64,000 nt of DNA, taken from Cetorhinus maximus (Eukaryota). Under the pieces are notes generated by a model that searched no databases, was not told the origin of the DNA, and worked only from the letters and a program-made list of their open reading frames with translations. Position numbers and translations under genes: made by a program. The stretch is taken from positions 60,884,001 through 60,948,000 of the forward strand of contig NC_135885.1 in assembly GCF_964194155.1 (NCBI RefSeq). The letters run 5' to 3'. Shown in pieces: positions 10,190 to 60,884 of the stretch (positions are counted from its first letter, which is position 1; each line of letters opens with the position of its first letter).

Positions 10190-11552
10190 ATCACAGAGTG
10201 CAGAAGAGGCCCTTTGGCCCATCAAGTCTGCACCAACACGTGAGAAACACCTGACCTACCTACCTAATCCCATTTACCAGCACTTGGCCCATAGCCTTGA
10301 ATATTATGACATGCCAAGTGCTCATCCAGGTACTTTTTAAAGGATGTGAGGCAACCCGCCTCCACCACCCTCCTAGGCAGTGCATTCCAGACCGTCACCA
10401 CCCTCTGGGTAAAAAAGTTTTTCCTCACATCCCCCCCAAACCTCCTGCCTTTCACCTTGAACTTATGTCCCCACATGACTGACCCTTCAACTACGGGAAA
10501 CAGCTGCTCCCTATCCACCCTGTCCATGCCCCTCATAATCTTGTACACCTCGATCAGGTCACCCCTCAGTCTTCTCTGCTCCAACGAAAACAACCCAAGT
10601 CTATCCAACCCCTCTTCATAACTTAAATGTTTCATCCCAGACAACATCCTAGTGAATCTCCTCTGCACCCCCTCCAGTGCAATCACATCCTTCCTATAAT
10701 GTGGCAACCAGAACTGCACACAGTACTCCAGCTATGGCCTCACCAAGGCTCTATACAACTCCAACATGATCTAAGATAAAAGCAAAATGCTGCGGATGCT
10801 GGAAATCTGAAACAAAAACAAAAATACCTTGAAAAACTCAGCAGGTCTGACAGCATCTGCAGTGAGGAATACAGTTGATGTTTCGAGTCTGTATGACTCG
10901 AAAAAGATCTGATGAAGAGTCATACAGACTCTAAACGTGAACTGTATTCCTCTCCGCAGATGCTGTCAGACCTGCTGAGTTTTTCCAGGTATTTTTGTTT
11001 TTGTTCCAACATGATCTCCCTACTTTTGTAATCTGTGCCTCGATTGACAAAGGCAAGTGTCACAGATGCGTTTTTCACTACCCCACTAACATGCTCCTCT
11101 GCCTTCAGAGATCTATGGACACACACGCCAAGGTCCCTTTGTTCCTCAGAACTTCCTGGTGTCATGCCGTTCATTGAATACTTCCTTGTCAAATTACTCC
11201 TTCCAAAGTGTATCACCTCACACTTTTCAGGGTTAAATTCCATCTGCCACTTATCTGCCCATTTGACCATCCCATCTATATCTTCCTGTAGCCCAAGGCA
11301 CTCACCCTCACTGTTAACCAGCCGGCCAATTTTTGTGTCATCTGCAAACTTACTAATCCTACCCCCCACATAGTCATCTATGTCGTTTATATAAATGGCG
11401 AATAATAGGGGACCCAGCACAGATCCCTCTGGTACGCCACTGGACACTGGCTTCCAGTCACTAAAGCATCCTTCTGTCATCACCCTCTGTCTCCTACAAC
11501 TAAGCCAATTTTGAATCCACCTTATCAAATTACCCTGTATCCCAATTACCCT
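10190..11552 (-). mobile_element. 5'-truncated CR1 LINE
   Basis: WIQNWL, GVPEGSVLGP, KFADDTK, LRGDLIEVYK. Same 3' UTR subfamily as 37250-37532. Confidence 0.95.
10773..11004. mobile_element. Palindromic Penelope/hammerhead mini-insertion
   Basis: Inverted arms of about 90 bp of Penelope terminal repeat. 13-bp TSD tccaacatgatct at 10760-10772 and 11005-11017. Confidence 0.9.
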
Positions 11553-24300: not shown

Positions 24301-24687
24301 ATATGGAGGCAGACATTTAAGAAAGACTTTCATTTATTATAGCACTTTTCATGACTACCAGACATCTCAAAGCACGTTACAGCCAATGAAATGCTTTTGA
24401 AATGCAGTCATTGTTGTCATGTAGGAAGCACAGCAGCCAATATGTATACAGCAAATTCCTACAAACAACAAAGTGACAACGACCAGATACTCTGTTTTTG
24501 TAATGTTGACTAAGGAACAAATATTGGCCAGGGCAGCAGGGATAACTCCCCTGCTGTTCTTGAAAATAGTGCCATGGGATCCTTCAAAGCCACCTGAACA
24601 GGCAAATGGCACCTCAGTTTAACAAAACAAAAACAGAATTACCTGGAAAAACTCAACAGGTCTGGCAGCATCAGCGGAGAAGACAAG

Positions 24688-24726
24688 AGTAGACGTTTCG
24701 AGTCCTCATGACCCTTCAACAGAACT
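24688..24726 (-). ncRNA. Minimal type I hammerhead ribozyme motif (CUGUUGA variant)
   Basis: agtt CTGTTGA a gggtc atgag gactc GAAA cGTC tact. Confidence 0.65.
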
Positions 24727-25089
24727 AAGTAAAAATAGGAGAGGGGTGAAATATAAGCTAGTTTAAGGTGGGGGGGAGAGAAGTTGGGGGGTGGGGGGTG
24801 GTTGTAGGGACAAGCAAGCAGTGATAAGAGCAGAGAATCAAAAGATGTCACAGATAAAGGAACAAAGAGGTGTTGATATTATCTAAGAGAATGTGCTAAT
24901 TAAGAATGGATGGCAGGACACTCAAGGCACAGCTCTAGTGGGGGTGGGGTGGAAAGACTGACAAGGCGTTACAGGTATAAATTTAAAAATAATGGAAATA
25001 GGTGGGAAAAGAAAAATCTATACAAATTATTGGAAAAAACAAAAGGGAGGGGGAAGAAACGGAAAGGGGGTGGGGATGGACGAGGAAGT

Positions 25090-26271
25090 TCAAGATCTAA
25101 AGTTGTTGAATTCAATATTCAGTCCGGAAGGCTGTAAAGTGCCTAGTCGGAAGATGAGGTGCTGTTCCTCCAGTTTGCGTTGGGCTTCACTGGAACAATG
25201 CAGCAAGCCAAGGACAGACGTGTGGGCAAGAGAGCAGGGTGGAGTGTTAAAATGACAAGCGACAGGGATGTTTGGGTCTTTCTTGCGGACAGACCGCAGG
25301 TGTTCTGCAAAGCAGTCGCCCAGTTTACGTTTGGTCTCTCCAATGTAGAGGAGACCGCATTGGGAGCAATGAATGCAGTAGACTAAGTTAGGGGAAATGC
25401 AAGTGAAATGTTGCTTCACTTGAAAGAAGTGTTTGGGCCCTTGGACGGTGAGGAGAGAGAAAGTGAAGGGGCAGGTGTTGCATCTTCTGCGTGGGTATGG
25501 GGAGGTGCCATAGGTAGGGGTTGAGGAGTAGGGGGTGATGGAGGAGTGCACCAGGGTGTCCCGGAGCGAACGATCCCTACGGAATGCCACCAGGGGGGGT
25601 GAAGGGAAGATGTGTTTGGTGGTGGCATCATGCTGGAGTTGGCGGAAATGGCGGAGGATGATCCTTTGAATGCGGAGGCTGGTGGGGTGATAAGTGAGGA
25701 CAAGGGGGACCCTATCATGTTTCTGGGAGGGAGGAGAAGGCGTGAGGGCGGATGCGCGGGAGATGGGCCAGACACGGTTGAGGGCCCTGTCAACGACCGT
25801 GGGTGGAAAACCTCGGTTAAGGAAGAAGAAGGGCATGTCAGATGAACTGTTTTTGAAGGTAGCATCATCAGAACAGATGCGACGGAGGCGAAGGAACTGA
25901 GAGAATGGGATGGACTCCTTACAGGAAGTGGGGTGTGAGGAGCTGTAGTCGACGTAGCTGTGGGAGTCGGTAGGCTTGTAATGGATATTGGTAGACAGTC
26001 TATCACCAGAAATTGAGACAGAGAGGTCAAGGAAGGGAAGGGAAGTGTCAGAGATGGACCATGTGAAAATGATGGAGGGGTGGAGATTGGAATCAAAATT
26101 AATACATTTTTCCAGGTCCCAACGAGAGCATGAAGCAGCACTGAAGTAATCGTCGATGTACCGGAGAAAGAGTTGTGTGAGGGGGCCGGAGTAGGACTGG
26201 AACAAGGAATGTTCCAAGTACCCCATAAAGAGACAGGCATAGCTGGGGCCCATGCGGGTACCCATAGCCAC
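25090..26271 (-). CDS. Penelope RT C-terminal part plus GIY-YIG endonuclease (5'-truncated ORF)
   Basis: AMGTRMGPSYA, RYIDD, LPFLDL, HYKPTDSH, CNTCP, NLVYCIHCSQCGLLYIGETKR, LQPSGLN. Open for 393 codons but lacks the N-terminal RT motifs. Confidence 0.88.
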   Translation of the reverse strand: MAMGTRMGPSYACLFMGYLEHSLFQSYSGPLTQLFLRYIDDYFSAASCSRWDLEKCINFDSNLHPSIIFTWSISDTSLPFLDLSVSISGDRLSTNIHYKPTDSHSYVDYSSSHPTSCKESIPFSQFLRLRRICSDDATFKNSSSDMPFFFLNRGFPPTVVDRALNRVWPISRASALTPSPPSQKHDRVPLVLTYHPTSLRIQRIILRHFRQLQHDATTKHIFPSPPLVAFRRDRSLRDTLVHSSITPYSSTPTYGTSPYPRRRCNTCPFTFSLLTVQGPKHFFQVKQHFTCISPNLVYCIHCSQCGLLYIGETKRKLGDCFAEHLRSVRKKDPNIPVACHFNTPPCSLAHTSVLGLLHCSSEAQRKLEEQHLIFRLGTLQPSGLNIEFNNFRS

Positions 26272-26345
26272 ACCTTTTATTTGGAGGAAGTGAGAGGAGT
26301 TAAAGGAGAAATGGTTCAGTGTGAGAAGTTAATTTATTCAAGTAA

Positions 26346-27350
26346 ATTAATTTTGCTTCAATTTCCACCCCATCATCATTTTCACACGGTCCATCTCTGA
26401 CACTTCCCTTCCCTTCCTTGACCTCTCTGTCTCAATTTCTGGTGATAAACTGTCTACCAATATCCATTACAAGCCTACCGACTCCCACAGCTACCTCGAC
26501 TACAGCTCCTCACACCCCACTTCCTGTAAGGAGTCCATCCCATTCTCTCAGTTCCTTCGCCTCCGTCGCATCTGTTCTGATGATGCTACCTTCAAAAACA
26601 GTTCATCTGACATGCCCTCCTTCTTCCTTAACCGAGGTTTTCCACCCACGGTCGTTGACAGGGCCCTCAACCGTGTCCGGCCCATCTCCCGCGCATCCGC
26701 CCTCACCTCCCTCCCAGAAACATGATAGGGTCCCCCTTGTCCTCACTTATCACCCCACCAGCCTCCGCATTCAAAGGATCATCCTCCGCCATTTCCGCCA
26801 ACTCCAGTATGATGCCACCACCAAACACATCTTCCCTTCACCCCCCCCGGCGGCATTCCGTAGGGATTGTTCCCTCCGGGACACCCTGGTCCACTCCTCC
26901 ATCACCTCCTACTCCTCAACCCCCACCTATGGCACCTCCCCATGCCCACGCAGAAGATGCAACACCTGCCCCTTCCATTCCTCTCTCCTCACCGTCCAAG
27001 GGCCCAAACACTTCTTTCAAGTGAAGCAACATTTCACTTGCATTTCCCCTAACTTAGTCTACTGCATTTGTTGCTCCCAATGCGGTCTCTTCTACATTGG
27101 AGAGACCAAACGTAAACTGGGCGACTGCTTTGCAGAACACCTGCGGTCTGTCCGCAAGAAAGACCCAAACATCCCTGTCGCTTGTCATTTTAACACTCCA
27201 CCCTGCTCTCTTGCCCATATGTCTGTCCTTGGCTTGCTGCATTGTTCCAGTGAAGCCCAACGCAAACTGGAGGAACAGCACCTCATCTTCCGACTAGGCA
27301 CTTTACAGCCTTCCGGACTGAATATTGAATTCAACAACTTTAGATATTGA
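26346..27350 (+). pseudogene. Second, inverted Penelope RT-thumb/GIY-YIG copy (frameshifted)
   Basis: Near-identical to the left copy; a small deletion near 26705 shifts the frame. Confidence 0.9.
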
Positions 27351-27723
27351 ACTCCCTCCTCCATCCCCACCCCCTTTCCGTTTCTTCCCCCCCCCCTTTT
27401 GTTTTTTCCAATAATTTATTTAGATTTTTCTTTTCCCACCTATTTCCATTATTTTTAAATCTATACCTGTAATGCCCTGTCAGTCTTTCCACCCCACCCT
27501 CACTAGAGCTGAACCTTGAGTGCCCTGCCATCCATTCTTAATTAGCACATTCTCTTAGATAATATCACCACCTTCAACACCTCTTTGTTCCTTTGTCTGT
27601 GACATCTTTTGATTATCTGCTCCTATCACTGCTTGCTTGTCCCTACAACCACCCCCCCCCCAACTTCTCTCCCCCTCCCCACCTTAAACCAGCTTATATT
27701 TCACCCCTCTCCTATTTTTACTT

Positions 27724-27762
27724 AGTTCTGTTGAAGGGTCATGACGACTTGAAACGTCAACT
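27724..27762 (+). ncRNA. Minimal type I hammerhead ribozyme motif (CUGUUGA variant)
   Basis: agtt CTGTTGA a gggtc atgac gactt GAAA cGTC aact; stem I agtt/aact, stem II gggtc/gactt. Confidence 0.65.
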
Positions 27763-30700
27763 CTTGTCTTCTCCGCCGTTGCTGCCAGACCTGCTGAGTT
27801 TTTCCAGGTAATTCTGTTTTTGTTTTGGATTTCCAGCATCCGCAGTAGTTTTTTGATTTTACCTCAGTTTAACATCCCATCCAAAGGACAGCACCTCTCA
27901 TAATGCAGCGCTCCTTTAGTACTCCACTGGAGTGTCAGCCTTGATTTTTATTCTCAAGTGCTGGAGGAGGAGTTGAAGCCAGAACCTTGTGACTCAGAGG
28001 CAAGAGTGTTCCCACTGAGCCACAGTTGACACACATTGTATGAGTTGAAGCCTTCTAGTATCCATGAGTGCACATGGGCTTTGTTATAGTCTCCATAGAG
28101 ACTAATAACCTTTAAAAAGAAATTTGACTGAAAGGATCACCACAAGAAGATTTCAGGCTTTAAGACTTTTACTATAACAAACAAATTAAAAGCAACAATG
28201 ACTAAATACTATTTTAGTAGGCAACTTCTAAACTACAGAAAAGATTCCCCATTTAACTTTTACAACGACCGAAAATCCACTACTGTGTCCCTGAAATGGA
28301 CACTTCAATTTCAAGGAACCAGTCCAAAGCTATTCTCAACTTCTTTTCCCTTTTCCAGATGGATAACAGTCTATCTACCATCAGCACAGCTGCTCGGATT
28401 ATTGTTTACAGGTGTGAATATCTTGCACCTTCTTAAAACCTGCACCCCCCCCCAACTTTAACCAAGCCACCTAGGCTTGTTGTGAGCATAATTCAGTGTA
28501 AGTCACATGACGCCCTTCATTTTACCCTAAATTAAAGAGACAGTTCCAAAACACAACAATCTTATTAATTCTTGCACTTGTAACACCTCCCATCTAAAAG
28601 TTGAAAAGTCATCATCAAAACGATGAGTTTTCAAAAAAAAAACACTATCCAAAACGTTTCAATTGATAACATTCTACACATTTTAACAACTAACTTATTA
28701 CACACAGCATACTTATCAATCTCTTCCTTGTCAAATTTCAGTATTAAACTGTCCATCTTGGCAGTATCACAATGTTTAACCTGTATCAACCAAATGCATG
28801 TAAGAGCTCCAGCTCTCTGAATGGGAGCTCATGCCGCTACTGGTAGCTTCACTTTCTGTCTTGTGTCACAGTAAATCTCCTTTCTCATGTTGAATTAAGT
28901 TCCTATGTCATTGGTTGATGGCACAATTGGTTCAGTCTGGGTAACTTTGTAAAGAAACATACTGTTACTTGCTGACAATCCCTGCGATTTTCAAATTCCA
29001 TTAGCTGTAAGCTGTAAATTGAGACAAAATCTGTCACAACTCCTCCTCATGTGGCTTCAGTATGTCCTTTTGTTCTTCCTCAGAATTAGATGTTACATTG
29101 TCAATAGGGTGTTGACTCCTAAACACAGTCAGTGAACCACTTTGTTCAGCTTTTAACTCTGGATCTCCATTCTCTTTCATGATAGTAAATTTTTTATTGC
29201 CCACAGGGTGAAAAAAAAGTCTCAACCAATCAAACAACTGACATGTCCTTTTCCTGTTTAAATGCAGGATTATGGTTCTCCTTCATCGCTTTAGGAATCT
29301 TGTTAGGGTCACGTTGATAATCAGTCAAAAAATTCTGATACTTTCTTTTTTTAGCCAGTTCATGAATTATTTTCAATTCTTTTCCCCAATTAGCACAATC
29401 TTTGCTCAACTCCTCTCTCACAAGAGCAACAGCTTCATCCTTCTGAAGTTTTAAATTAAGTTCCAATTAAAACTTGAATTTGTCCTCGTAGTTCCACAGT
29501 ATCAGCATGATTTACAGCCAAGTCATTGTTCTAAAGCACGGCGTTTCTCCATCAGCCTGGAGTGCAGCTGCTTTGACACCTTGGCTTAGGGTGTGCAGGC
29601 AGGCTTAATTCAGACAGTCTGTTTCCAGTTTATTTAACTCTTTGTTGTCAGACTGAGGTTTCAGTATCTTTTTAATCTCAGAAGTCTGAGCTTTTGAATC
29701 TCCGGAACCCTCTTAAGTCGAACCATTGTTCTTTACAACAGATTCAGAGACATGCATATGTTTTCCCATGTCCATTGATTTTGCTGATATATCTGTATCT
29801 TTAACAACTTCAGTGGATTTTGTGGAAATGTCTGGAGGCAGCACATGGTTTCTAGTTACATTGTTTCCCAAGATAAAGTCAATATAATTAATAGGCAATC
29901 TTGACACCACTCCCACAATAACAGAACCACTGACTAAAGCACAGTTTAAATTCACCCTACACAATGGTACAGATAAACAATTTCCATCGATGTCCTCTAT
30001 CAATCCACTTTTATTTAGTGAACTTTCCAGAGAGAAATTCAGATCTTTTGCTAACATCAGAGATTGCGCTGACCCCTGTATCTCAAAGAATAACAATCTA
30101 TTTGGCACTAAGATAAAAGCAAAATACAGAGCTCTGGAGTCATACAGACTCAAAACATTAAATCTATTTGACACCTTTATCGGACAAAAATTGAGTTCCT
30201 TTATTCTCAAATATAAAACTCCCATTATGTTTTATGTTCCAATGTACACCCACTGTGAATACATTAGATGGTATTGGTTGGTCACAAGCTCCATTCACTG
30301 GTACAGCGTAGTCTGAAAATTCATTAGGCACACCTACAAATGCCACCAGTTTAGCTTTTAATTTCCAGAAATCTGCTTTTACATGCCCCGCCTTATGACA
30401 AAAGTAAACGTTGGTCCCCTTGAATTATACTCATTCCCACACTGACTTTTTTACTACCTCCAGAAGCATCTTTCTTTTCATTTCTCCCATGCCCCTCATG
30501 GTAATTAGTATCCTGTTCATGATCACTTCTCATATCTCTCCAGTTTCTGTGTGGGCTTGCAAACAAAGGTTTGCTGCCACCTATGTGTTTGTGGGATAAT
30601 ATGTAATCATCAGCCATAACAGCAGCTTCTCTTATTTTCAAAACTTTATGGTCTTCCAGACGAAAGCTTATTTCTAAAGGGATACTGTCTTTAATTTTTT

Positions 30701-31505: not shown

Positions 31506-31604
31506 AAAAACAGAAAATGCTGAAAATACTCAGCAGGTCTGACAGTAACTGAGGAGATAGAAACAGAGTTAATGTTTCGAGTTGAATATGACTCTTCTTC
31601 AGAA
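31506..31604 (-). repeat. Penelope terminal-repeat fragment with hammerhead motif
   Basis: Minus strand: tt CTGAAGA a gagtc atatt caactc GAAA catt aac. Flanked by aatctt at 31500-31505 and 31603-31608. Confidence 0.8.
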
Positions 31605-32559
31605 TCTTTATTAACTGTTGCAAGGTACTTTCACTGCGAAATCTGGTTTATTTAAACTCTAGCAAATCCCAGTGTACTTGTCCCAGGGTGTGGATTCAAA
31701 ATCCTGGATAAGTCCCCAACTTGTTATGATCCCTGTAGACACCGATTAACTTTTAAAAAGAAATTCAAACTTCCAGTGAATGCTGAAAGGATCACACGGC
31801 AAGATTTCAGATTTTAAAACTTTTACTGTAACAGACAAACTAAAAGCAGAATTGACTAAACACTATTTCAGTAGGCAACCTATACACTAAATTAAGTGTT
31901 TTGTCACTTCTTAACAATTAAGAATACACACACACACACAGCTATCTGCTTCTGAACCCCAACTTCCTGTGTGTGAAAAAAAAACAGGTTTCTCTATTCC
32001 TTATTCTACACCAGAAGGCAATACATTCTGGACTTAGCACATCCTACAGTCAGGTTTTTTATATAACACTTCTTCTTAACTAAAATGTCCTTTTACAAAA
32101 AATCATGAACGTTAAACACAAACATCACATCTCCTCCCCCTTTAGCTAGGAACAAATCAGTCAGGCAGTTTGCAGATTCACTTTGGTCTAGAGAGGAGTG
32201 TTGGCTTAGGTATCTCAGTTTGTTTGCTTAGAAATGGAAGGTTCTGCTGTTCCACTTGTTTCTGTTCAGGTTCAACAGTTGCAGCTACAGGTGCCAAAGG
32301 TTTTTCAGTTGAATCAAGCCGGGTTTCACCAACTGGAGTAGATGTTTCCCAGAAACCTTCCACTGTGACTGGAGATCCCTGGAAATTTGGTTCCTTGAAT
32401 TTGGCTTCTCTAATCTGGTCAGTGTGTCTCTTCCAGATTCCACAGGAAGATTCAACATCATAGACAGTGGTCCTCGACGCATGATGTTTCTTCCCAGGAG
32501 TCACTTGGGTGTTCCACAGTAATTTTGGACCCAAACAGACTGATCCAGATTAAACTCAC

Positions 32560-33420
32560 AAGCTGGTTTACTTGTGTCATGTGATCTTTTCTGATCAAGT
32601 TGCCTTGAACCAATCTTTCCTTTCAAATCTGTACACAGCAAATCCATTCTGGTATGCAGTCATCTTCCAAACATCAGCTCAGCAGGAGATATGCCTGTTG
32701 TTGAATGCGGAGTGTTACGATACAGCATCAAAAAGTTCTTCAGCTTCAACTTCCAATCTGTTTGCGTCCACCCCTTCAATATGGCCATTTTGAATGTTTG
32801 GACAAAACACTCCACTTTACCATTTCAGGATGGGTGGTAAGGCGAGATGAGAATCTGCTTGATCCCCATTGTTTTTCAGGAATGTTCGAAATTCACATGA
32901 TGTGAACTGTGTGCCATTGTCAGACACAATCTGCTTCGTCAATCCAAAAGTAGTGAACACATTCCGGAGAGCATCAATGATCTTTGCTGAAATAGTCGAC
33001 TTCATGGGAATAACATGAGGCCACTTTGTGTGGGCATCCACCACAATCAGGGACGTATGTCCAAGAAGTGGCCCGAATAAGTCCACATGAAGTCTCTGCC
33101 ATCGATGGTCATGCCAAGCCGACAGATGTAATGGGGCAGGTTCAGGAGAAGACTTTGTTTCTTGGCATGGAAGACAATCACCAACCATGCTTTCGATGTC
33201 TTTATCCAGGCGTGGCCACCATACATGTAAGCAAGCCAACGCTTTCATTTTGATGATACCCATGTGACTGAGGTGAAATTCTTCTAACACTCGTGTTTGG
33301 AATTTTGGAGGCACAACAACTTTGATTCCTCATAACAAACAACCATCTTGCAGAGTCAGCTCAAATCTATGCATGTAGTAAGGTTTAAGCTCAGTAGTCA
33401 CTTCTTGAGGTACACACCAA
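32560..33420 (-). pseudogene. Gypsy integrase remnant
   Basis: HHCC zinc motif (HLSHMG ... CLPC), WQRLHVD, VSDNGTQF; frameshifted downstream. Confidence 0.88.
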
Positions 33421-33476
33421 CCCTTCTGTGTGTACAGGTAAACTTTGGAGAGCAAAGCATCCCTCTGCATTTCAAG

Positions 33477-34952
33477 TCAAATCTGATGCGCTTTAACAGG
33501 TAGCATATCTATCTGGTTCACATGGAAAGCAGTGACTTCACTTCGGGTTGTGGAGCTGTGGTGTAACGGAAGTCTGAAAAGTGCGTCTGCATTTCCATGA
33601 TTCTCAGTAGAGCAAAATGTAATTTCGTACTGGTAAGCAGATAAGATCAGTACCCACCTTTGTAGGCGTGCAGCGGCAAGTGTTGGGGTTTGTGACTTTG
33701 GGCTAAGCAACCAGGTTAAAGGCTTGTGGTCTGTAATTAATGTGAATTTACACCCATACAAATATTGGTGGAACTTCTTGACTCCATAGATTAATGCAAG
33801 AGCTTCCTTCTCAATTTGGGCATAATTTTGTTCTGCCTTGGACAATGTGCATGAGGCATATGCAATGGGCCTTTCACTGCCATCAGGAAATGTGTGGCAG
33901 ATGACAGCTCCAACACCATATCCAGATGCATCACAAGCCAGGCTGACAGGTAACTTTTCATTGAAACGTGCCAGGGCTTTAGCAGAAGTGAGCTCTTGCT
34001 TGAGTTCCTTGAAACTTTCCTGACAGGCTTGTGACCAATCGCATTTTGCTTTCTTCTTCAGCAGATTATTCAGTGGTGCTGCCTTGGTAGCCAAACTGGA
34101 AATGAACTTGCCGTAGTAATTCACAAGTCCCAAAAACGAATAAAGCTCCTTAACATTTTTGGGCTGTGGTGCATTCACCAATGTCTCCACCTTTCTGGGT
34201 GAGGTTGAGAGGCCAATTTTGGCGATCACATGCCCCAGGCAATCCACTGAGGGCTTCAGGAATGAGCATTTGGATTTCTTACAGTGGATGCTGTATTTTT
34301 CCAGTCTACGCAGGACCCTGCCTAGGTTCTCTAAATGAGTTGGTAGCTTTTTCCTGGTGATGAGCATGTCGTCTTGGAAGCAGATTACACCAGGGAGGCC
34401 CTGTGGTACTTTGCCCATGGCCTGCTGGAATAAGGCTGGTGATGACGCGATTCCAAATGGTAGTTGTTTATATTGATATAGACCTCCGTGTGTGCGGATG
34501 GTTGTATACTTCCTGGAATCTTCACTTAGCTGCATTTGCAAAAATGCCTGTGATAGGTCAAGCTTTGTGAATAATTCACCTCCATTCAGAGTAGCAAACA
34601 GGTCCTCAATTTTCAGTAGTGGGTACTGATGCACTTCCAGGAAAGGATTAATGGTGATTTTATAGTCGCCAGATATTCTGATAGACTTGTCATCCTTCAC
34701 TACTGGGACTTCTGGAGCTGCCCACTCTACATAATCAACTTTCTCAATTATCTGGAAGTTTTCAAGTCGTTCTAGTTCCTGCTCGATTTTCTGTCGCATT
34801 GAGTAGGGAACTGAACGTGGTTTGAAGAACCTTGGATAAGCTAATGCCTTCACGGCGTGTTTGGCTTCAATGTCTTTAATAACCCCAGGACCACCTTTGA
34901 AGGCATCAGTATGCTTGCCTAAGAAGGACTGCAACATGGGGTTGCAATGCAC
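33477..34952 (-). pseudogene. Gypsy pol RT-RNase H segment
   Basis: KLDLSQAF, LPFGIASSP, FQDD, ACDASGYGVGAV, EKEAL, TDHKPL. Flanked by stops and frameshifts. Confidence 0.92.
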
Positions 34953-37249
34953 TTTATCTATTCTATTCCAGTCCAGCCAAATTTCTTTTAGTCAGTTCCT
35001 GCCCATAAGCGATGAATGATCCCCTTTCACAATGATAAGTGGTAGCCTTGCTATTTGATCTCCGTATTTAGCTTGAACCGACATTTTTCTAAGTATGTCC
35101 ACAGACTCACCAGTGTAGGCACTAAGCTGGAGGAGGGTTTTCTCCAATGGGGCATTTCATGAAAATTTTCTCCTACGTCTTCTCTGAAGCAGTAGAAACA
35201 GATGCTCGAGTGTCAACCTCCATTTTACCATTTAAGGCAATGGCAACTTTTAGCCCTTCACCGAGTTTCAGATCAGACTGAATGCAATACACTTGCTCTT
35301 CTGCATTGTCGCTATTGGTTTCACTTTCTGTCTCATCTGGACTCGCATTATTTTTGTACTTTGTTTCCAAGTAATGTGTCTTTTTAAACTGTCTGTTTAT
35401 TTTCAAGCACAACTTGTCTGTGTACTCCTCGTGATGCCCTTCTCTTGGTTGTGCTGCTTTTCTGTGATCAGCCTTTGATCTACATGCATGCTGTATGTAT
35501 CCTTTCCTTCCACAGTAGCGACAATCAGCGGTTTTCCACTTACAGACTTCTTCATCATGCCCTATTCCATTACAGCACTAACATGCTTGGAAGTGAGTAT
35601 ACCCTGACTTTACTATTTTAACTTTGGCATTGTTAGAATGCACTTTCAAATCTCCAGCTTATTTCTCTGCCATTTCTATGCTTTGCGCAATCTCGAATGC
35701 TTTCTTCAGTGTCAACTCTTGCTCCGCTAACAATCTACACTGAATTCTTTAATTTCTTGGTCCACAAACCAAGCGATCATGTGACGCTTCTTCCAGGTAA
35801 CCTTTAAAGTCACAATGTTCCGCTAGTTTTCTCAACTCAGCCAGGAACTGGGAAACTGACTCACCCTCATGCTGTTCTCGTCGGTGAAACTTGAATCTCT
35901 CGGCAATAATTGCTGGTCTGGGATCGAAGTGCTTTTTCAAAATGTCCACAAGCTCTTTAAAGCTTTTTGCTCCTCACATACCAGCAGATATGACATTTCT
36001 CAGTAGTGAAATTTTTCATTCTGATTACTGTAAGAAACACTGAGGCTGCTTTTCCTCTTCAATCTCATTTACAATGAAAAGCTGTTCCATTTGCTTGACA
36101 TAAACTACAAAATCCATAGTAGCTGGATCAAAAACCTCTAAAGCTCCTAATAATGATGATCCCATCCTCATCACCATTTGAAATGTTTTGTCACTTCTTA
36201 ATAATTAAGAATACACACACACACACACACACAGCATTCTGCTTCTGAACCCCAACTTCCTTTATAAAAAAACAGAAGGTTCCTTTATTCCTTATTCTAC
36301 ACCAGAGGGCAATACATCAGGACTTAGCACACCCTACTGTCAGGTTTTTTATATAACACTTCTTTTTAACTTAAATTTCCTTTTACAAAAATCATAATGT
36401 TAAACACAAACACCACACTAAACTATGGAAAAGATCTCCCATTTAACTTTTACAATGACCGAAAATCCCCCTGCCATGGTTACTTTACTCCATCCCTTAA
36501 GTAGGCACTTCATTCTGCAGGAACCAGTCTAAAGGTATTCTCAGCTCCTTTTTCCTTTTTCAGGCAGATAACAACTTCTTCTCCCCCAACTGACTTTCAC
36601 AGTGAGGGATGAATTGGAGATCTCTCCCTGTTACAAAAGCTAGGCAAATCTTCTAGCTTCATTTAAGCCCTCACGAACTTGGTCTCTTCAATCCAAGTGT
36701 GAGCTCCTACCTGCATCCTGGATGGTAAACAATAGAGACTTGCTGCCTCTATCTCTCTGCTTGCTCGCTCACTCTCTCTCTCTCTCTTTTGGATTCTTGC
36801 AGACTGACCATGTCTGTAACGTTCAGTGATATTTTTATGAAAACATACAACCTTGTCTTACAATGGTTTCCGATGAACTCTTCCCTTCTCAAAGCCCATC
36901 TCCATGGCGATATGAATCACATGTAACCTGTATCCAGGTAGAAATGCTAATTAGCTATTCTCCAGACCCCCAACTTCATTTTATCTTGGAATTAAATAGG
37001 CAGTTTAAAATACAAGTGTTTACAAAACTTGGCGTTCCTGACACATCTGTGGGACTTAGAGCTTAACAGCCTATCCACTGTTAGCCAGCTGCCTGGGTCA
37101 TTGTTTACAAGCATGAATATCTTGCATTTTCTTCTCAATAAAACATCCTGCTTGAGACTCGTTGGCAGAATTCAGAACAGGTCACATGACCCTTCCTCCA
37201 TTTTTACCCTAAATTACAGAGACCGTCCCAAAAAACAATCTTGTAAACC

Positions 37250-38817: not shown

Positions 38818-39927
38818 TTATACAGCTGACTGTTGCTCACTACAAACATAAATTGTGCTGGGTCGGATTCTCCGTCTCGTCCTGCCAGGCAGCTTTGGTA
38901 GAATTTTTAATGTTTTTGGCATGAATTCCATACAGGACTCACGAAATTTCTTAATACGCCAGCAGTAGATGATGGGATTGAAAACTGATTTCAGGTAAGT
39001 GAGCCACAAAACCCAGATGCTAACAGTATAGAAGGACTGACTGTGATAAAAGTTCTTGCTGAAAACGGAGAGTAGACTATACACTGTGTATGGCAACCAG
39101 CAAATGGAAAAGCCAATGAAGAGGATTAAAATAGTTGTGAAGGCTCGGGTTTTAAAACTCATATCAACATTTATTTGATGAGGGCGATGCAAGCCCACTT
39201 GGCTCAAGCAAAGGCTGTCTGCATGGTTGTGGATCCGCACAGCATTCCTTCGCACTGTGTTCAGAATGCAGAGGTAAGAGTATAGCATCACACCAAAAGG
39301 AACAAAAAAAATAGTCACCAGCAAGAGCACTGCATAAATGCGGTTAGCTTCAGTCTCTGTGTACCCCAGAACGCACTGGGGTGCCCGTGTAGGCACGTCC
39401 ACCACAGTCCAGCCAATCACTGATGGAAATGAAATACACAAGGAAACAGCCCATGAAATGATAATCATTATTTTGGCACGATGAGGATTCAGTTTGTCTT
39501 GCCGCTGCACAATGATTAAATAGCGATCAACACTGATTATCAGAAGTATTGCCACACCTTCCAGGACAAAGAACCAGTAAAGCATAGCAGATATCCGGCA
39601 AAAATAACTTCCAAAGATCCACTCAACTGTTATGATGGTGACCGTGGTAAAAGGCATGCATATCAAAGACAGCATGATGTCAGAAAATGCAAGGGTTGCT
39701 AAGAGCAGGTTGATTGCTGAGCGCATTGCAGGCTTCTGATACACAATTAAACACACAATTGCATTACCAAGGAAACCAACTGCAATCATTGACATCATAA
39801 CTATTGCTAGTAATATCCTTACAATGATAGGAAGATTTGTCTTGCCTGAATTCACAGTTGGACTTGTTGCATTCAAAACCTCAGGGACACAGCTCTGTAA
39901 AAGAGTGTTATTACACTCCATCGTCAT
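38818..39927 (-). CDS. GPR45: Orphan class A GPCR GPR45 (single coding exon)
   Basis: Intact 369-aa ORF with seven hydrophobic segments and class A motifs: GN (TM1), LAFSD (TM2), DRY, CWLP, NPIIY. Segments PAMRSAINLLLATLAFSDIMLSL, YWFFVLEGVAILLIISVDR and C-terminal IRPSTIYVCSEQQSAV match my recollection of GPR45 better than its paralog GPR63. The second ATG (39921, ACGATGG) has the better Kozak context. Confidence 0.93.
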   Translation of the reverse strand: MTMECNNTLLQSCVPEVLNATSPTVNSGKTNLPIIVRILLAIVMMSMIAVGFLGNAIVCLIVYQKPAMRSAINLLLATLAFSDIMLSLICMPFTTVTIITVEWIFGSYFCRISAMLYWFFVLEGVAILLIISVDRYLIIVQRQDKLNPHRAKIMIIISWAVSLCISFPSVIGWTVVDVPTRAPQCVLGYTETEANRIYAVLLLVTIFFVPFGVMLYSYLCILNTVRRNAVRIHNHADSLCLSQVGLHRPHQINVDMSFKTRAFTTILILFIGFSICWLPYTVYSLLSVFSKNFYHSQSFYTVSIWVLWLTYLKSVFNPIIYCWRIKKFRESCMEFMPKTLKILPKLPGRTRRRIRPSTIYVCSEQQSAV

Positions 39928-40146
39928 GTGGAATGTGCCACTAATTCACTTCTTCATGAAAAATGAGCTATATTACATTTCACATCTCTGCAGGGATTGT
40001 TTGAAGATAGACCAGATTCTTAGCTAATAAAAATCCTTTGCAATTGGATATAGTGCAGTGCAGGGACATCTTGATATGAATTGTCTTCATTACTATTTCC
40101 AGCATATTGTTAGCCGCATCACAATTTCCAAAGAGCACTTCATCGC

Positions 40147-41254: not shown

Positions 41255-41392
41255 AGTTCAATTATGAAAGGTCATTAACCTGAAATGTTAATTCGATGTC
41301 TCTCTCCAGCGATGCTGCCTGACCTGCTGAGTATTGCCAGCATTTTCTGTTTTCATTTGAAATTTCCAACATCTGCAGTATTTTACTTTGGT
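41255..41392 (+). repeat. Degraded Penelope terminal-repeat/hammerhead fragment
   Basis: tgaaaggtcattaacctgaaatgttaa ... gatgctgcctgacctgctgagt ... tttccaacatctgcagt. Confidence 0.75.
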
Positions 41393-48805: not shown

Positions 48806-49745
48806 GGATGTCCAGGTGAACATGCAAGGGAGGGCTCTGATGTGTCCATGACTGCCTCCTGGGGAGGGCAATAAGGGTGGGTGTGGAACGAAGGAATGGT
48901 GAGAATGACTGAAGGCAGAATGAGGCATAGGGTGGGAGGGGTAGGGTTTGACGGTAGCGATAGAAGGGATGGTGGGGACTCGGAGGCAGACATGGACCCT
49001 GGGGGTCAGAAGAAGGAGGTTTGGGAGGTTAATGTAGATGGGGGTGGGATTTTTGGGAAGGAAGGGAATGTGCACGTTCACCCGGACCTCCCCGAAGGAA
49101 AAGGGTTGTGGCCGGTAGGTGACAGTGGGGAGGTGGAAGGTGATGCCAGGAGGGGCAACAGTGAAAGGAAATGGGGGACTGGGGTAGGCGGAAGGATGGG
49201 GGAGCTGACGAAAAAGTGAATCAAGGCCATGCTAAGTCCAAAGTGAAATGACAGTCGTGGTGGGCGAGATCAAGTGCTGCAAGGGGGTGTGATCATTGGG
49301 TAGTGAGCCCATGACTGCCTACTGGGGAATGAACTGAGGGTGGGTGCGGAATGGAATGGTGAGAATGACTGAGGGAAGACTGAGGCGGTCAGGTGAGGAT
49401 TCGACAATAGTGATAGAATGGACGGCGAGGATGGTTGTCGGGGACCCAGAGGCAGACACATACCCTGGAAGTGGAAGGAGGAGGTCAGGGAGGTTAATAT
49501 GGATGGGATGGGATTTTGGGGGAGGAGGGGAATGCACACGTTCACCTGGACATCGCTGAAGGAAAAGGCTTGTGGCTGGTAGGTCACAGAAGGGAGGTGG
49601 AAGGTGATGCCAGGAGGGGTCAACTCTGTTGGAGGAAAGGAAATGGGTGAATGGGGGAGGGAAAAAGGGGGAAGTGAATGAAAATCTGAATCATGACCAT
49701 GCTGTCTAAATCAAAAATGAAACAAGAGTCCTGGTGGACAAGATC

Positions 49746-50417
49746 AGACCCAGACCTCCCTGTCGCTTGCCATTTCAACACACCATCCTGCTGTCATGCC
49801 CACATCTCCGTCCTTGGCCTGCTGTAATGCTCCAGTGAAGCTCAATGCAAACTGGAGGAACAGCACCTCATCTTCTGCCTATGCACTCTACAGCCTTCTG
49901 GACTTAACATTGAGTTCAACAATTTCAGATCATGAACTCTCTCCTCTATCCCCACCCCCTTTCCGATCCCCCTTTTTCCAATAATTTAAATAATTTTTTT
50001 TTACAACTATTTTTTTCTCTTCCCTCCTATTTTTAAATTTATTTCGATCTATTGTTTCAACTCTACCTTTTAGCCTATTTCGATCCTTTCCCCCTACCCC
50101 ACCCGCACTAGGGCCATCTGCCACTAGCTTGCTTCCCTTAATGTCACCATTAGCACATTCCTTAGCTAATATCACCATCGTCAACACCCCTTTGTCCTTT
50201 TATCTATGACATCTTTGGCTGTCTCTTCTTGGCCTCCCCCTATCACTGGCCCCCTATCAAACTCTCCTGTCCCACCCCCTTCTACCAGCTTATATTTCAT
50301 CTCATTTCTATATGTCTTAGTTCTGATGAAGGGTCATATGGACTCGAAATGTCAACTGTATCCCTCTCCGCAGATGCTGTCAGACCTGTTGAGTTTTTCC
50401 AGGTATTTTTGTTTTTA
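49746..50417 (+). mobile_element. 5'-truncated Penelope element
   Basis: DPDLPVACHFN ... LQPSGLNIEFNNFRS followed by 3' UTR and hammerhead-bearing terminal repeat. Confidence 0.92.
50319..50357 (+). ncRNA. Minimal type I hammerhead ribozyme motif (canonical core)
   Basis: agtt CTGATGA a gggtc atatg gactc GAAA tGTC aact. Confidence 0.75.
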
Positions 50418-55025: not shown

Positions 55026-56548
55026 TGGGGGGAGAGATGAGAAAAAAAAGGTGGAAAAAGAATTTCTGTTGCAAGTTTGCAATCAGTATGATTGTGGGGA
55101 AGAATAGAGAGCTGCACCTGAGAGGTGATGAGGGCATTGAAGGGAATCAGCAGGCCAAGAGGTCACAAAACAAAGTGAGCCTAATTTAATGAAAAGCCAC
55201 ATTTGTAAAACAAAAATAAGAACCTGATCAAAACCTGATCAGCGAAGACTTGTAAGTATGGTTGAGCTTGCCCCTTAAGAATACAATGTCATGTGAGTGC
55301 AGAATTCTGATTTCCTTTCTGCAGAAGCACAATAACATTTTGTATTTCATAATGGACTAGCTGGTAAAAGAATCAGAGCTAAAGATGTCCTTCTATGAGG
55401 TGGGATAAGGTGGAATGATCAGTGTACATTTTTGACAGCTGGAAGGCATTTAAAAATGCTTGATCTTTTTGATACTCCCCTTTAATGCACTCTGTTAGAG
55501 GAGGTCATCAGATACATCAGGTACCAGGCTTGAAGACTACCATTTGCACATTGGAGATGACAACAGAGACGATTGTTGGAACCCTGACAATGTAAAAATG
55601 GAGAGAAACTATCTGCCATTTTGACCCAGCATAGATCACTTGTATGGTACCACAACTCACACTGTGGTCATCAAACAATGCATATTCAATTGGAATGGGC
55701 TGTACCTACCTGTCTCAATTTAGCACCAGGAATATATAGCTCACTGGTTTGTCCAGGACGCCAAGCAATGGAGTGGTCCAGTGCATTGTGCCCATTTTTC
55801 GAGCGTAAAACAGGTGCAACACATACCAATTTAACAGTGGGACAGCCTGCACCTAATCTGCATAGGTAGTGGCCCCACTGCCAAATTTGTGGGGCCCATT
55901 CTAGCCATCCCTGCGGATGCCTTAAACAGGACTTAGATCCCCTGAATACATAAATTCAGGCCTAACATCCATTAAAGGACCCCTTTCTGATATTTAGTGA
56001 ATGATGAGCAAAGTTTTACTCCCGTGTTTTAAGGGGACTGTACCCACTCCCACTTCATTAATTTTAGTGAATACAATCAAACTTATGGAAAATTATCAAT
56101 TGGATCACTGTTGATTTTAACTTGAATTTAGTTACTTTCCATATGTGAGACAAATGTTGGCAACTTAAACAGGCAGCTTTTGTAAAAGCACCAAATTATA
56201 TTCCAATGAATCTTTCTACTATATGGCACATTCAAGTCTGATTATAAAATGAATGAATTTGTATTTATGAATGTAATTCATTTAAGAAAAGTTATTCAAC
56301 TAAACAGGGTTTTTCGATACATGGTTAGGTGAATTAGATCAGACAAAAAATATATATTTTAATTTTAGTTCAGCCTATAGCACAGGAATGAAAAGGTCAT
56401 TTTTAGCATCTGGTTAACAGCTTCAACAGTCACCCATATTGTTTGGGGTAAAGAAAAAAATCACAGTTCTTCAACCTGCAGATATTAACATTAATAGTTT
56501 CACAACATTCATTCTCAAACTCAATAGAGTTAATGAGAAAAAATGACA

Positions 56549-56751
56549 AAACAAAAACAGAAATACCTGGAAAAACTCAGCAGGTCTGGCAGCATCGGCG
56601 GAGAAGAACAAATGTTCTGTTGAAGGGTCACGAGGACTCGAAACGTCAACTTTGTTCTTCTCCGCCGATGCTGCCACACCTGCTGAGTTTTTCCAGGTAT
56701 TTCTGTTTTTGTTTTGGATTTCCTGCATCTGCAGTTTTTTGTTTTTATCTC
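56549..56751. mobile_element. Palindromic Penelope/hammerhead mini-insertion
   Basis: Near-perfect inverted arms of about 64 bp around a hammerhead motif. 15-bp TSD tgagaaaaaatgaca at 56534-56548 and 56752-56766. Confidence 0.92.
56614..56650 (+). ncRNA. Minimal type I hammerhead ribozyme motif (CUGUUGA variant)
   Basis: gtt CTGTTGA a gggtc acgag gactc GAAA cGTC aac. Confidence 0.68.
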
Positions 56752-57464
56752 TGAGAAAAAATGACATTTTGCTGCAGTGACACAGATGATTCAATTTTCT
56801 TTAAGTTGTTTCATCTGCAGCAACTAAGAGCAGAAGAAATTAGTTTTTTTACAGATCCAACCTTGAAATCTTAACTCCTACACACTTGAGACATTCATGT
56901 TGAAAATCTTATAATAAATAACAATCATAGTACAGGGCACATTAATTCCCACCTCCACAAATTGTTTCCTTTAGAATTTGAGTCTGTTCAGAAAGATAGC
57001 ATGCCAATATCATTGGCTATTTTTCATATTTCCAAGGCTCATGAAGCACAAACATGCAGTTATTTTGGACAATATTATGTCTGATGAAATATGTGGCATA
57101 AATTTGACAGCACATTGCTCACATTCTCTTCCTTTGTACCAGGCCATTTCATAGATCCTTATCCCTATTAGGAAAACTACCTCTATTTTCTAGGCATTAA
57201 CTACTATGTACAGTTCTCATATGTTGATGTTCAAATTGCACCTGTAAGCATCGTTGTCAAAGATGACACATAAGCAGCTTACAATAAAACAGAGTTTTTC
57301 TCAAAAGCAACAAAGAGGAATATCAGCCCTTTAAACTCAAACCATCATCCCTTAATTTTTATTTCTAAATCTGTTTTTAAAAGGTATATATATATATTTA
57401 CATATATATATATGTATTTATGTATGAATTTAAGATAGAATGATTACTACTAAATTCATTGTCG

Positions 57465-59512: not shown

Positions 59513-60678
59513 TTACACGTCCATCATAACATCATGGCTTACCCTGCACCTACAGAACAAATGAAGCATCCAGAGGCCAGTTGCACAAAAAAACATATCA
59601 TTTACTGGTGACTGACAAATATTGCAAAAATTAACATCCATGATACCATTAAAAAACACAGAAAAATGGGGGAAACAAATATCACCCATGATCAGACTGT
59701 GTTGTGTGTAAGGTGCTTTAAGCTTTTGCTTGCGGGTGCTACGTCTAGGTCCTCCCCCCTCGCTGGCCCCGGGATTGGAGACAGCCTGCTGACTCTGCTG
59801 TCCTGTTGGCCTTGATGGCCTTGGTGGGCATCCTCTGGCCAGTGGAGCCTGTGCTGGCCCCGTCTGGGAAGGAGCGGCCAGTGCCATGGTTGGCATCTCC
59901 CCAGTTGCCGCAGCCTCATCGGATGCCACGGTCACTGGCAGAGCGGCGGAGGAGCTGCTGCCATCATCCGGAGTGCCCTGAGAGGAGCCCACAGAGACAA
60001 GAGGTAGCTCACGCGCCAACATGATGTCACTGTGGACCTCCCTGCACACCATCGATGGATGGGCACTTAGATGGGATACGGGGTACCCAATCCATCTCCC
60101 ACACTGACACTGACCAGCTGAGGTCATTGCCAGTGTGAGGACTTGCAGGTCCGAGCCCATCCCTAGGAAGCCCTGATTGAGTCCCTGGAGGAGCCTCTCC
60201 ACGAGAGTCACCACTCTCTCCATGGAGGAGTCATTGTGCTTGGCCATGAGGGTTAATGCAGTGCTTATGGTCCGCAGGGACCCCTCCACTATGGAGACCA
60301 GACCACGCATTCCCTCATGTATCTCCGCCAGATCCTCCCGTACACACTGCTGGACATCCAGCATCTGCTGCCTCATGGACAACTCCAGAGGCACATCATC
60401 AGCCATCGACTGAGCATTGTCCTGATCCCCAGAAGTCCTCCGACTGCCAGCGCCCTGGGCATTCTCTGCCTCCGCCCGCACCTCAAGCGAGTGTGAAGTG
60501 CCCTCGCCAATGTGCACCGAAATACTAGACGGCGATCTTGTGCCCACCGAGGTGCTGGTACCTGCGCTGGTGCCTGCTGGACAGAGAGGGTGTGATGCAG
60601 GTGCATACTCAGCATGCTGGTCCTCTGGGGTCAGGGGTGAGCCTTCAGGCTCCTCATAATGACCGCCTGCTGGTGAAC
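59513..60678 (-). CDS. Harbinger Myb/SANT protein, exon 3
   Basis: Acceptor ttcttctcccttttAG. Continues in frame into the long ORF with a coiled-coil-like middle and a basic PRRSTRKQKLK motif. Confidence 0.72.
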
Positions 60679-60884
60679 CTAAAAGGGAGAAGAAGGACAT
60701 GTCATTAGTTTAAGTGATTAGACTGTCAGTGTGCATGCCTGGCACCCTGATGAGACAGAGATATGTATCATGGTGCCCTCATCTTACCATTATCAATGAG
60801 GGTTCCAGGTTCGAATCTCACATCAATATACATTGGAGTGGTTGCAAAAACTCACATTCTCACCTCAGGGCACTGCACTCTTAC

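What the first reader, a model, noticed from the sequence alone, without database searches (positions are those of the whole stretch)
56534..56766. Mini-hairpin whose inverted arm ends at the predicted ribozyme cleavage site
Seen: 203-bp insertion with a 15-bp TSD. The inverted arm copies only sequence 3' of GAAACGTC^ (aac tttgttc...) and joins through the stem I bases gtt to a complete hammerhead, so the ribozyme forms the loop of a stem of about 64 bp. Other short fragments (31604, 41255, 10908) also begin right at the hammerhead. Inference: template 5' ends are set by self-cleavage or by the ribozyme structure, suggesting a ribozyme-delimited, non-autonomous Penelope-derived mini-element (retrozyme-like).
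Basis: partly seen in the sequence, partly recalled or inferred. Interest (0 to 1): 0.7.

Follow-up and report, generated by a model that had tools for sequence, protein, structure and literature searches.

The report
Twin-primed Penelope retrotransposon hairpin stub
This 203-base hairpin is one of many stub-sized, back-to-back insertions of a Penelope-type jumping gene, likely stitched together at landing from two short DNA copies of one RNA; the stubs mostly stop at the front edge of the ribozyme motif, likely where the RNA begins, and only rarely at its predicted cut site.

Summary
The insertion, 15-bp TSD and 66-bp stem are real. The cut-site reading is not supported. The inverted arm stops 4 nt past the predicted hammerhead cut site (+4). 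The other arm starts at -33, the motif's 5' edge. The element is the terminus of an abundant Neptune-like Penelope retrotransposon. Of 100 unselected arms, 13 of 70 stop at -30..-38 and 2 of 93 at -4..+4. 109 of 110 tight hairpins pair one tailed with one untailed arm. Arms share subfamily and correlate in length, and identical junctions recur across subfamilies, so this is not a clonal mini-element or retrozyme. Best model (inferred): both target nicks prime reverse transcription at two fixed sites on one RNA, both copies run off its 5' end (likely a transcription start), and they are end-joined. Against a start site: 36 of 39 ORF-linked copies read past it. A small excess of starts at the cut site is not excluded. 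The anatomy is known; this scan reported the same reading in this and other genomes.

The parts
56534..56548 (.). Left target-site duplication (15 bp)
   Evidence: family mode 14 bp, 50 of 98 pairs with a TSD found
56549..56612 (-). Inverted, untailed arm: Penelope terminus from +67 (outer end) to +4 (inner end) relative to the predicted cut site
   Evidence: family untailed outer ends cluster at +64..+67
56613..56613 (.). One unmatched T at the arm junction (filler or substitution)
   Evidence: sequence
56614..56751 (+). Sense, tailed arm: Penelope terminus from -33 to +104, i.e. the region just upstream of the ORF start codon in tandem copies
56614..56651 (+). Minimal type I hammerhead-shaped motif: stem I GTT 56614-16, core CTGTTGA 56617-23 (U at position 6), extra A, stem II GGGTC/GACTC, GAAA, palindromic ACGT helix III, predicted C17 at 56647
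   Evidence: sequence; stem II in the predicted fold; anatomy from PMC4209133; no Rfam hit; activity untested
56715..56751 (+). One-sided 'tail' (about 37 nt) between the two outer-end sites
   Evidence: tail described in PMC8557442 and PMC11167929
56752..56766 (.). Right target-site duplication
24611..27874 (.). Same anatomy at 3.2 kb: inverted untailed arm (to about -1624) plus tailed arm (to about -1400) carrying RT/GIY-YIG coding sequence, 14-bp TSD
10760..11017 (.). Older hairpin stub (arms end at -31 and -12, 18-nt filler, 13-bp TSD; one arm has canonical CTGATGA), inserted in a LINE RT region
31506..31609 (-). Older single-arm stub starting at about -31
41255..41389 (+). Decayed single-arm stub starting near the motif's 5' edge
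48846..50416 (+). Older, longer 5'-truncated relative with canonical CTGATGA core

Best explanation
The hairpin is a very short head-to-head insertion of the terminus of a Neptune-like Penelope retrotransposon, likely built at the landing site from two reverse transcripts of one RNA. SHOWN here: TSD; one tailed and one untailed arm; shared subfamily; correlated inner ends; a sharp pile-up of inner ends at -33/-34; few ends at the cut site. INFERRED: (1) the GIY-YIG nuclease makes a staggered cut about 14-15 nt apart; (2) each 3' overhang primes reverse transcription, one at about +103 and one at about +66 of the same RNA, matching the two internal start sites and both-strand extension reported in vitro for an anole element (PMC11167929); (3) both copies run towards the RNA 5' end, and many stop at A-34/G-33, most likely a transcription start (initiator-like YYAGTTC, TATA-like run about 29 nt upstream); (4) the two copy ends are joined blunt, with filler, or through small inverted microhomologies, which the hammerhead stems happen to supply. 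In this copy the tailed arm reached -33 and the untailed arm stopped or was trimmed at +4. The ribozyme motif is likely a passenger at the front of the RNA, not the cutter that sets the end.
For: 109 of 110 tight inverted pairs are tailed+untailed; 48 of 50 in sets not chosen by junction, long arms included. Outer ends cluster at +64..+67 and +98..+111. Same subfamily key in 74 of 88 pairs versus 16 expected at random, maximum 28 in 2000 shuffles; 1.3 versus 4.2 mismatches per 52 nt. Inner ends correlate: rho 0.77, n=38; 0.59, n=50; 0.70, n=18 with both arms beyond -40. In 100 unselected arms: 13/70 stop at -30..-38, 3/57 at -39..-47 (P=0.03), 2/93 at -4..+4 (P=0.0005). Pooled 245 arms: 31/186, 3/155, 5/231, mode -33. 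Genome-wide: 1,238 both-at-edge hairpins, 382 exact -33/-34 junctions, 35 stem-I junctions, 35 CGAG junctions, 145 with both arms near the cut site. The commonest junction leaves a 1-nt loop, which self-priming cannot easily make. No strong predicted helix just upstream of about -36.
Against: No RNA 5'-end data: only contigs were available, and they showed no start site. Among copies that carry the ORF start, only 3 of 39 reaching -30 stop at -30..-38 (versus 13/70, P=0.16). A simple 'full-length RNA starts at -34' predicts more, so read-through tandem RNA or template jumps must be invoked. No leading-arm bias: tailed arm longer in 25 pairs, untailed in 22. Some pairs are very asymmetric (-1609/+25). 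Arm likeness could partly reflect later gene conversion. Starts at +1 (161) outnumber starts at one control position, -6 (85), about 2-3-fold after allowing for pattern capture. Pattern counts differ in stringency and are lower bounds.
Confidence: 0.65

Rival explanations
1. Fold-back self-priming: one copy is made, folds back near its 3' end and copies itself; the nuclease or a stop then trims the second arm at about +66.
For: Explains correlated arm lengths and arm identity. Self-priming was proposed for palindromic junctions in PMC3846280 (passages), and nuclease resolution for the tail in PMC8557442 (passages). 10 of 38 unselected junctions overlap by 1-6 nt.
Against: 28 of those 38 junctions are blunt or carry filler. 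The commonest junction (382 copies) has a 1-nt loop. Copies primed at the untailed site should give untailed/untailed hairpins: 0 of 110 tight pairs, 1 of 50 in the wider set.
Confidence: 0.15
2. Twin priming as in the best model, but the -33/-34 wall is not a transcription start: it is an enzyme pause, a protein footprint or another processing site on a longer RNA.
For: 36 of 39 ORF-linked copies pass the wall. 57 of 70 unselected arms pass it. No RNA start shown.
Against: The wall is sharp (382 of 1,238 at one junction), sits on an initiator-like motif, and no stable helix is predicted upstream. A 3' splice site would leave a constant exon upstream of -32; the listed junctions show none.
Confidence: 0.12
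3. One reading: hammerhead self-cleavage sets the 5' end of a non-autonomous, retrozyme-like mini-element that spreads as a unit.
For: This copy's inverted arm ends 0-3 nt from the cut site. 35 stem-I junctions exist. 161 matches for starts at +1 versus 85 at -6; in 30 inspected +1 loci, 5 were internal deletions and 6 were stem-I joins to a partner ending at the edge, leaving a possible small real excess.
Against: 2 of 93 and 5 of 231 arms stop at -4..+4; 0 of 45 read-through copies do. Of 50 listed both-near-cut hairpins, 11 centre on the cut site, where GTYAAC is itself a near-palindrome, and 12 are 38-nt matches mostly centred on the ACGT palindrome upstream (read by eye). Canonical CTGATGA in only 5 of 241 arms; A6C lowers activity in Mg2+ (PMC3088659, PMC7151607, passages; A6U not covered there). 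Single minimal hammerheads did not cleave (PMC4209133); cleavage was not needed for insertion (PMC11167929). Junctions recur across subfamilies.
Confidence: 0.05
4. Hairpins formed after insertion by recombination or deletion between longer inverted copies.
For: Long inverted insertions exist (window 24611-27874) and long inverted repeats are unstable (own knowledge).
Against: Deletion would need microhomology and would not peak at one blunt junction in 382 copies. Single-arm stubs stop at the same edge.
Confidence: 0.03

Closest known systems
EN+ Penelope-like elements with an inverted 5'-truncated copy and one-sided 30-40 bp tail (PMC8557442, PMC3846280; passages read)
   Same: Head-to-head inverted terminus, one-sided tail, TSD, pLTR tandems, RT plus C-terminal GIY-YIG partner ORF, minimal hammerhead in the pLTR.
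   Different: Here the whole insertion is only the two stubs. The tail is shown to be obligately one-sided (109 of 110), and inner ends pile up at -33/-34. The cited papers explain these features by self-priming or nuclease resolution.
Anole Poseidon PAc in vitro (PMC11167929; results read, supplements not)
   Same: Two internal RT start sites that bound the tail, both target strands cleaved and extended, predicted dimer, hammerhead cleavage dispensable.
   Different: Different clade (this ORF has the CX2-5CxxC linker). In PAc the ORF starts inside the hammerhead; here it starts about 150 nt downstream. The parts read do not derive inverted insertions from the two sites.
L1 twin priming (as described in PMC11702581; passages read)
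   Same: Second target 3' end primes a second cDNA on the RNA; TSD preserved; ends joined by end-joining.
   Different: In L1 the second primer starts internally next to where the first copy ends, so the arms do not overlap. Here both start about 37 nt apart at fixed sites and copy the same sequence, giving a palindrome.
Non-LTR retrozymes (PMC7229834 passages; bioRxiv 10.64898/2026.07.22.740005 parts 1-2 of 5)
   Same: Short, non-coding, type I hammerhead-bearing, Penelope-related.
   Different: Retrozymes are head-to-tail tandem repeats with canonical hammerheads that release circular RNA. This is a head-to-head single insertion with a minimal, A6-substituted motif and no clonal spread.

Membership tests
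EN+ Penelope-like element (insertion product) | Partner ORF with RT and C-terminal GIY-YIG nuclease, DKG and CCHH motifs | tested here: met
   913/914-aa frames, Pfam RVT_1 E 3e-7 and 1e-6. DKG, VY-x-C-x2-C-x-YIG and downstream His read in the translation. Pfam did not hit the nuclease domain; no solved-structure hit.
EN+ Penelope-like element (insertion product) | pLTR / partial tandem organisation linking this terminus to the ORF | tested here: met
   L136: pLTR, hammerhead, tail, ATG at about +150, ORF, second pLTR; 879 copies of the UTR-ATG junction.
EN+ Penelope-like element (insertion product) | Inverted 5'-truncated copy, one-sided tail, TSD | tested here: met
Neptune/Nematis clades | CX2-5CxxC linker between RT and nuclease | tested here: met
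   CPCRRCNTC upstream of GIY-YIG; criterion from PMC8557442.
Neptune clade | RT phylogenetic placement | not tested
   No tree built; Neptune versus Nematis not resolved here.
Minimal type I hammerhead | Short stem I, stem II with extra 5' A, palindromic loopless helix III | tested here: met
   sequence 56614-56651, fold, PMC4209133
Minimal type I hammerhead | Conserved core C3 U4 G5 A6 N7 G8 A9 | tested here: not met
   U at position 6 here; of 241 arms, 137 CTGTTGA, 30 CTGCCGA, 25 CTGCTGA, 5 CTGATGA, 4 rare, 40 unclassified.
Minimal type I hammerhead | Self-cleavage | not testable with these tools
   Genomic proxy only: no major pile-up at +1; a small excess is not excluded.
Non-LTR retrozyme | Head-to-tail tandem units each with a hammerhead | tested here: not met
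   Single head-to-head insertion with one complete motif.
Non-LTR retrozyme | Abundant circular or unit-length RNA | not testable with these tools
   Only contigs of guessed RNA runs were available.
Clonally amplifying non-autonomous element (MITE/SINE-like hairpin) | Fixed junction inherited by one lineage of copies | tested here: not met
   Junctions vary widely. The commonest junction occurs in several subfamilies and both polarities, 15 loci inspected of 382.

The most novel reading that the evidence does not exclude
These stubs are an in vivo record of an unsolved integration step: a Penelope RT-nuclease dimer primes both target nicks at two fixed sites of one RNA. Priming in the RNA's 5' terminal repeat gives a 'strong-stop'-like pair of copies that map the transcription start to A-34/G-33. 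Copies that jump to the 3' repeat instead would regenerate the pseudo-LTR, and short RNAs from solo ends would serve as SINE-like templates.
Probability: 0.4. Interest if true: 0.65.

Novelty: new member of a known kind. Interest (0 to 1): 0.36.

Why it matters
As an object it is ordinary: one of thousands of stub insertions of a known retrotransposon class, often mistaken for MITEs or retrozymes. Its value is statistical. How Penelope elements make inverted repeats and a one-sided tail is stated as unresolved in PMC8557442. The strict tailed/untailed pairing, shared template and sharp inner wall connect the two in vitro RT start sites (PMC11167929) to genomic products and give direct tests: marked RNAs, start-site shifts, 5'-end mapping. 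It also argues that ribozyme cleavage is at most a minor source of template ends in this family.

Tried and rejected
Rfam scan of the window: 0 hits. Rfam scan of 20 of the 30 fetched +1-start loci for rRNA or other fused RNAs: 0 hits, so the rRNA fusions in note e1-8661026 were not seen in this subset. Random 200 kb of genome held few copies, so I switched to pattern-anchored sampling. The first 30 similar loci are biased by the query; their frequent CGAG junction is only 35 genome-wide, and they were kept out of the hazard counts. RNA and DNA contigs on the pLTR-ORF junction showed no start site and no splice joint among listed rows; depth is uninformative. A 5'-UTR intron (GT at +56, AG at about +195) was considered; the donor is not kept in other subfamilies' contigs and no joint was listed. 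A splice acceptor at -33 was rejected: no constant upstream exon. Extra G/C filler at the wall as a cap signature appears in about 7 of 50 listed junctions (by eye), but its strand cannot be assigned in a palindrome, so it is not counted as evidence. A leading/trailing arm bias was predicted and not found (25 vs 22). PDB sequence search: none. The protein atlas gave no answer. The core tally used a wrong slice and was redone. Offsets printed (fold) and 73 are shifted by about 1 nt.

Full report
Coordinates below are relative to the predicted hammerhead cut site (C17 = 0 = window 56647).

OBSERVATION. The 15-bp TSD, 203-bp insert and 66-nt arms are real (fold z -20). The sense arm runs from -33 to +104. 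The inverted arm runs from +67 to +4, and one unmatched T separates them. The inverted arm therefore stops 3 nt short of the cut site unless the T is an insertion. The loop is a minimal hammerhead-shaped motif with core CUGUUGA (U at position 6). Rfam finds nothing.

WHAT IT IS. The sense arm matches the 3' end of a longer element in the window. That element, 24611-27874, has the same anatomy at 3.2 kb: inverted untailed arm, tailed arm, 14-bp TSD. The genome (4.0 Gb) has 20,915 exact copies of a 20-mer of the motif. Long copies carry 913-914-aa frames with RVT_1 and DKG, CX2-5CxxC, GIY-YIG and CCHH motifs, which by the criteria in PMC8557442 indicates the Neptune/Nematis type. In tandem copy L136 the motif and tail lie just upstream of the ATG at about +150. 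That the host is a cartilaginous fish is my recall from the repeat sequence and earlier notes; no call names it.

I took the first 100 chromosome-1 hits of a 27-mer at +32..+58 (8,870 in all) and mapped each inner end against real copies. No row was dropped; two are tandem-repeat fragments, and two were cut by locus edges. Stops: 2/95 at +20..+5; 2/93 at +4..-4; 6/91; 6/85; 9/79; 13/70 at -30..-38; 3/57 at -39..-47. 22 arms extend beyond -630. A pooled 245 arms not chosen by junction (partly anchored on the motif or the ORF) gave 5/231, 31/186 and 3/155, mode -33. Exact genome-wide patterns: both arms ending within 12 nt of -32, 1,238; the single -33/-34 junction, 382; stem-I junction at the cut site, 35; CGAG micro-palindrome junction, 35; both arms near the cut site, 145. 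These patterns differ in stringency and are lower bounds. So ends do pile up at the hammerhead, but at its 5' edge.

RESIDUAL CUT-SITE SIGNAL. Prompted by notes e1-8622537 and e1-8661026, I counted arms starting at +1 (161) and at -6 (85). In 30 loci of each, 5 and 6 were internal indels; 6 of the +1 set were stem-I joins to a partner ending at the edge. After allowing for capture (18/64 versus 27/64), +1 may be 2-3 times the one control. This is a few hundred arms, a minor class. Low-level cleavage is not excluded. Against frequent cleavage: 0 of 45 copies reading through from the ORF start stop at -4..+4 (89 copies examined, 38 ended before the anchor), and only 5 of 241 arms have canonical A6.

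PAIR ANATOMY. Of 141 inverted pairs, 110 had tight junctions and arms under 390 nt; 109 pair a tailed with an untailed arm. With long arms resolved, 48 of 50 do (55 examined). TSD mode is 14 bp. Arms share a subfamily key in 74 of 88 usable pairs against 16 at random. Inner ends correlate (rho 0.59-0.77). The commonest junction occurs in several subfamilies, with A-34 on the tailed arm in 4 and on the other arm in 11 of 15 loci (two of the 11 have damaged arms). It is therefore made repeatedly, not inherited.

MECHANISM. PMC11167929 (parts 1-2 of 4 read) reports two internal RT start sites that bound the tail, extension of both target strands, a predicted dimer, and no need for hammerhead cleavage. 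One RNA offers each site once, which explains the strict pairing; one template explains shared subfamily and correlated ends. The 382-copy junction has a 1-nt loop, hard for self-priming but natural for joining two run-off copies. The wall sits on YYAGTTC with a TATA-like run about 29 nt upstream; similar pLTR promoter motifs were noted in PMC3846280, and an internal promoter in PMC2377424 (passages). All of this is inference. Its weak points: no RNA end data; only 3 of 39 ORF-linked copies stop at the wall; no leading-arm bias.

COMPARISON. The anatomy (inverted truncated copy, one-sided tail, TSD) is described in PMC8557442 and PMC3846280 (passages), and opposite-strand hammerhead pairs 100-700 bp apart in PMC4209133 (parts 1-2 of 4). 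It works like L1 twin priming (PMC11702581, passages) with fixed, overlapping starts. It fails the retrozyme tests (PMC7229834 passages; bioRxiv 10.64898/2026.07.22.740005 parts 1-2 of 5). Searches listed no paper that, by title, abstract start or the passages I read, reports the strict pairing or the 5'-edge wall. Subscription papers (e.g. Arkhipova 2006) were not seen, and no supplements were read; Fig. S2 of PMC11167929 may bear on genomic ends.

EARLIER SCAN NOTES. My reading was recorded before the first look-up. Searches show the scan reached the same reading on other windows of this genome and on other genomes. These notes are not independent support.

VERDICT. Real and mostly ordinary: a stub insertion of a known class, with a useful mechanistic signature. 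Interest 0.36.

Noticed in passing
window 56617-56623 and genome-wide: Young subfamilies have replaced hammerhead A6 by U or C (137 CTGTTGA, 30 CTGCCGA, 25 CTGCTGA, 5 CTGATGA of 241 arms) while keeping stems; older copies keep A6 and stop at the same 5' edge.
   Followed up: partly
window 38818-39945 (-): Single-frame 375-aa rhodopsin-family GPCR (7tm_1, E 4e-50), about 16.6 kb from the hairpin.
   Followed up: no
window 32817-34991 (-): Decayed LTR-retrotransposon pol fragments (RVT_1 and RT_RNaseH at 33477-34991; integrase-like frame at 32817-33329 by eye).
   Followed up: no
window 59513-60709 (-): 398-aa open frame with no Pfam hit.
   Followed up: no
L056 (G000:C1:3973826 onward): Head-to-tail array of about 33-bp units made from the 3' half of the hammerhead region: a minisatellite born from this terminus.
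   Followed up: no
G000 C24, C256, C379; C29, C30, C1030: Several hairpin or ORF-bearing hits with identical scores at many places, suggesting segmental amplification rather than new insertions.
   Followed up: no
L145, L316, L362, L372, L380: Short partial tandems in which a copy ending 2-35 nt into the ORF is joined directly to a second hammerhead-bearing terminus, suggesting template jumps.
   Followed up: no
unselected arms, -56..-80: Second, weaker cluster of inner ends around the AT-rich TATA-like run (13 of 54 arms), probably from local AT palindromes.
   Followed up: no
L152 (G000:C1:10540031-10540189): Hairpin whose two arms look like different subfamilies, a possible two-RNA event.
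   Followed up: no
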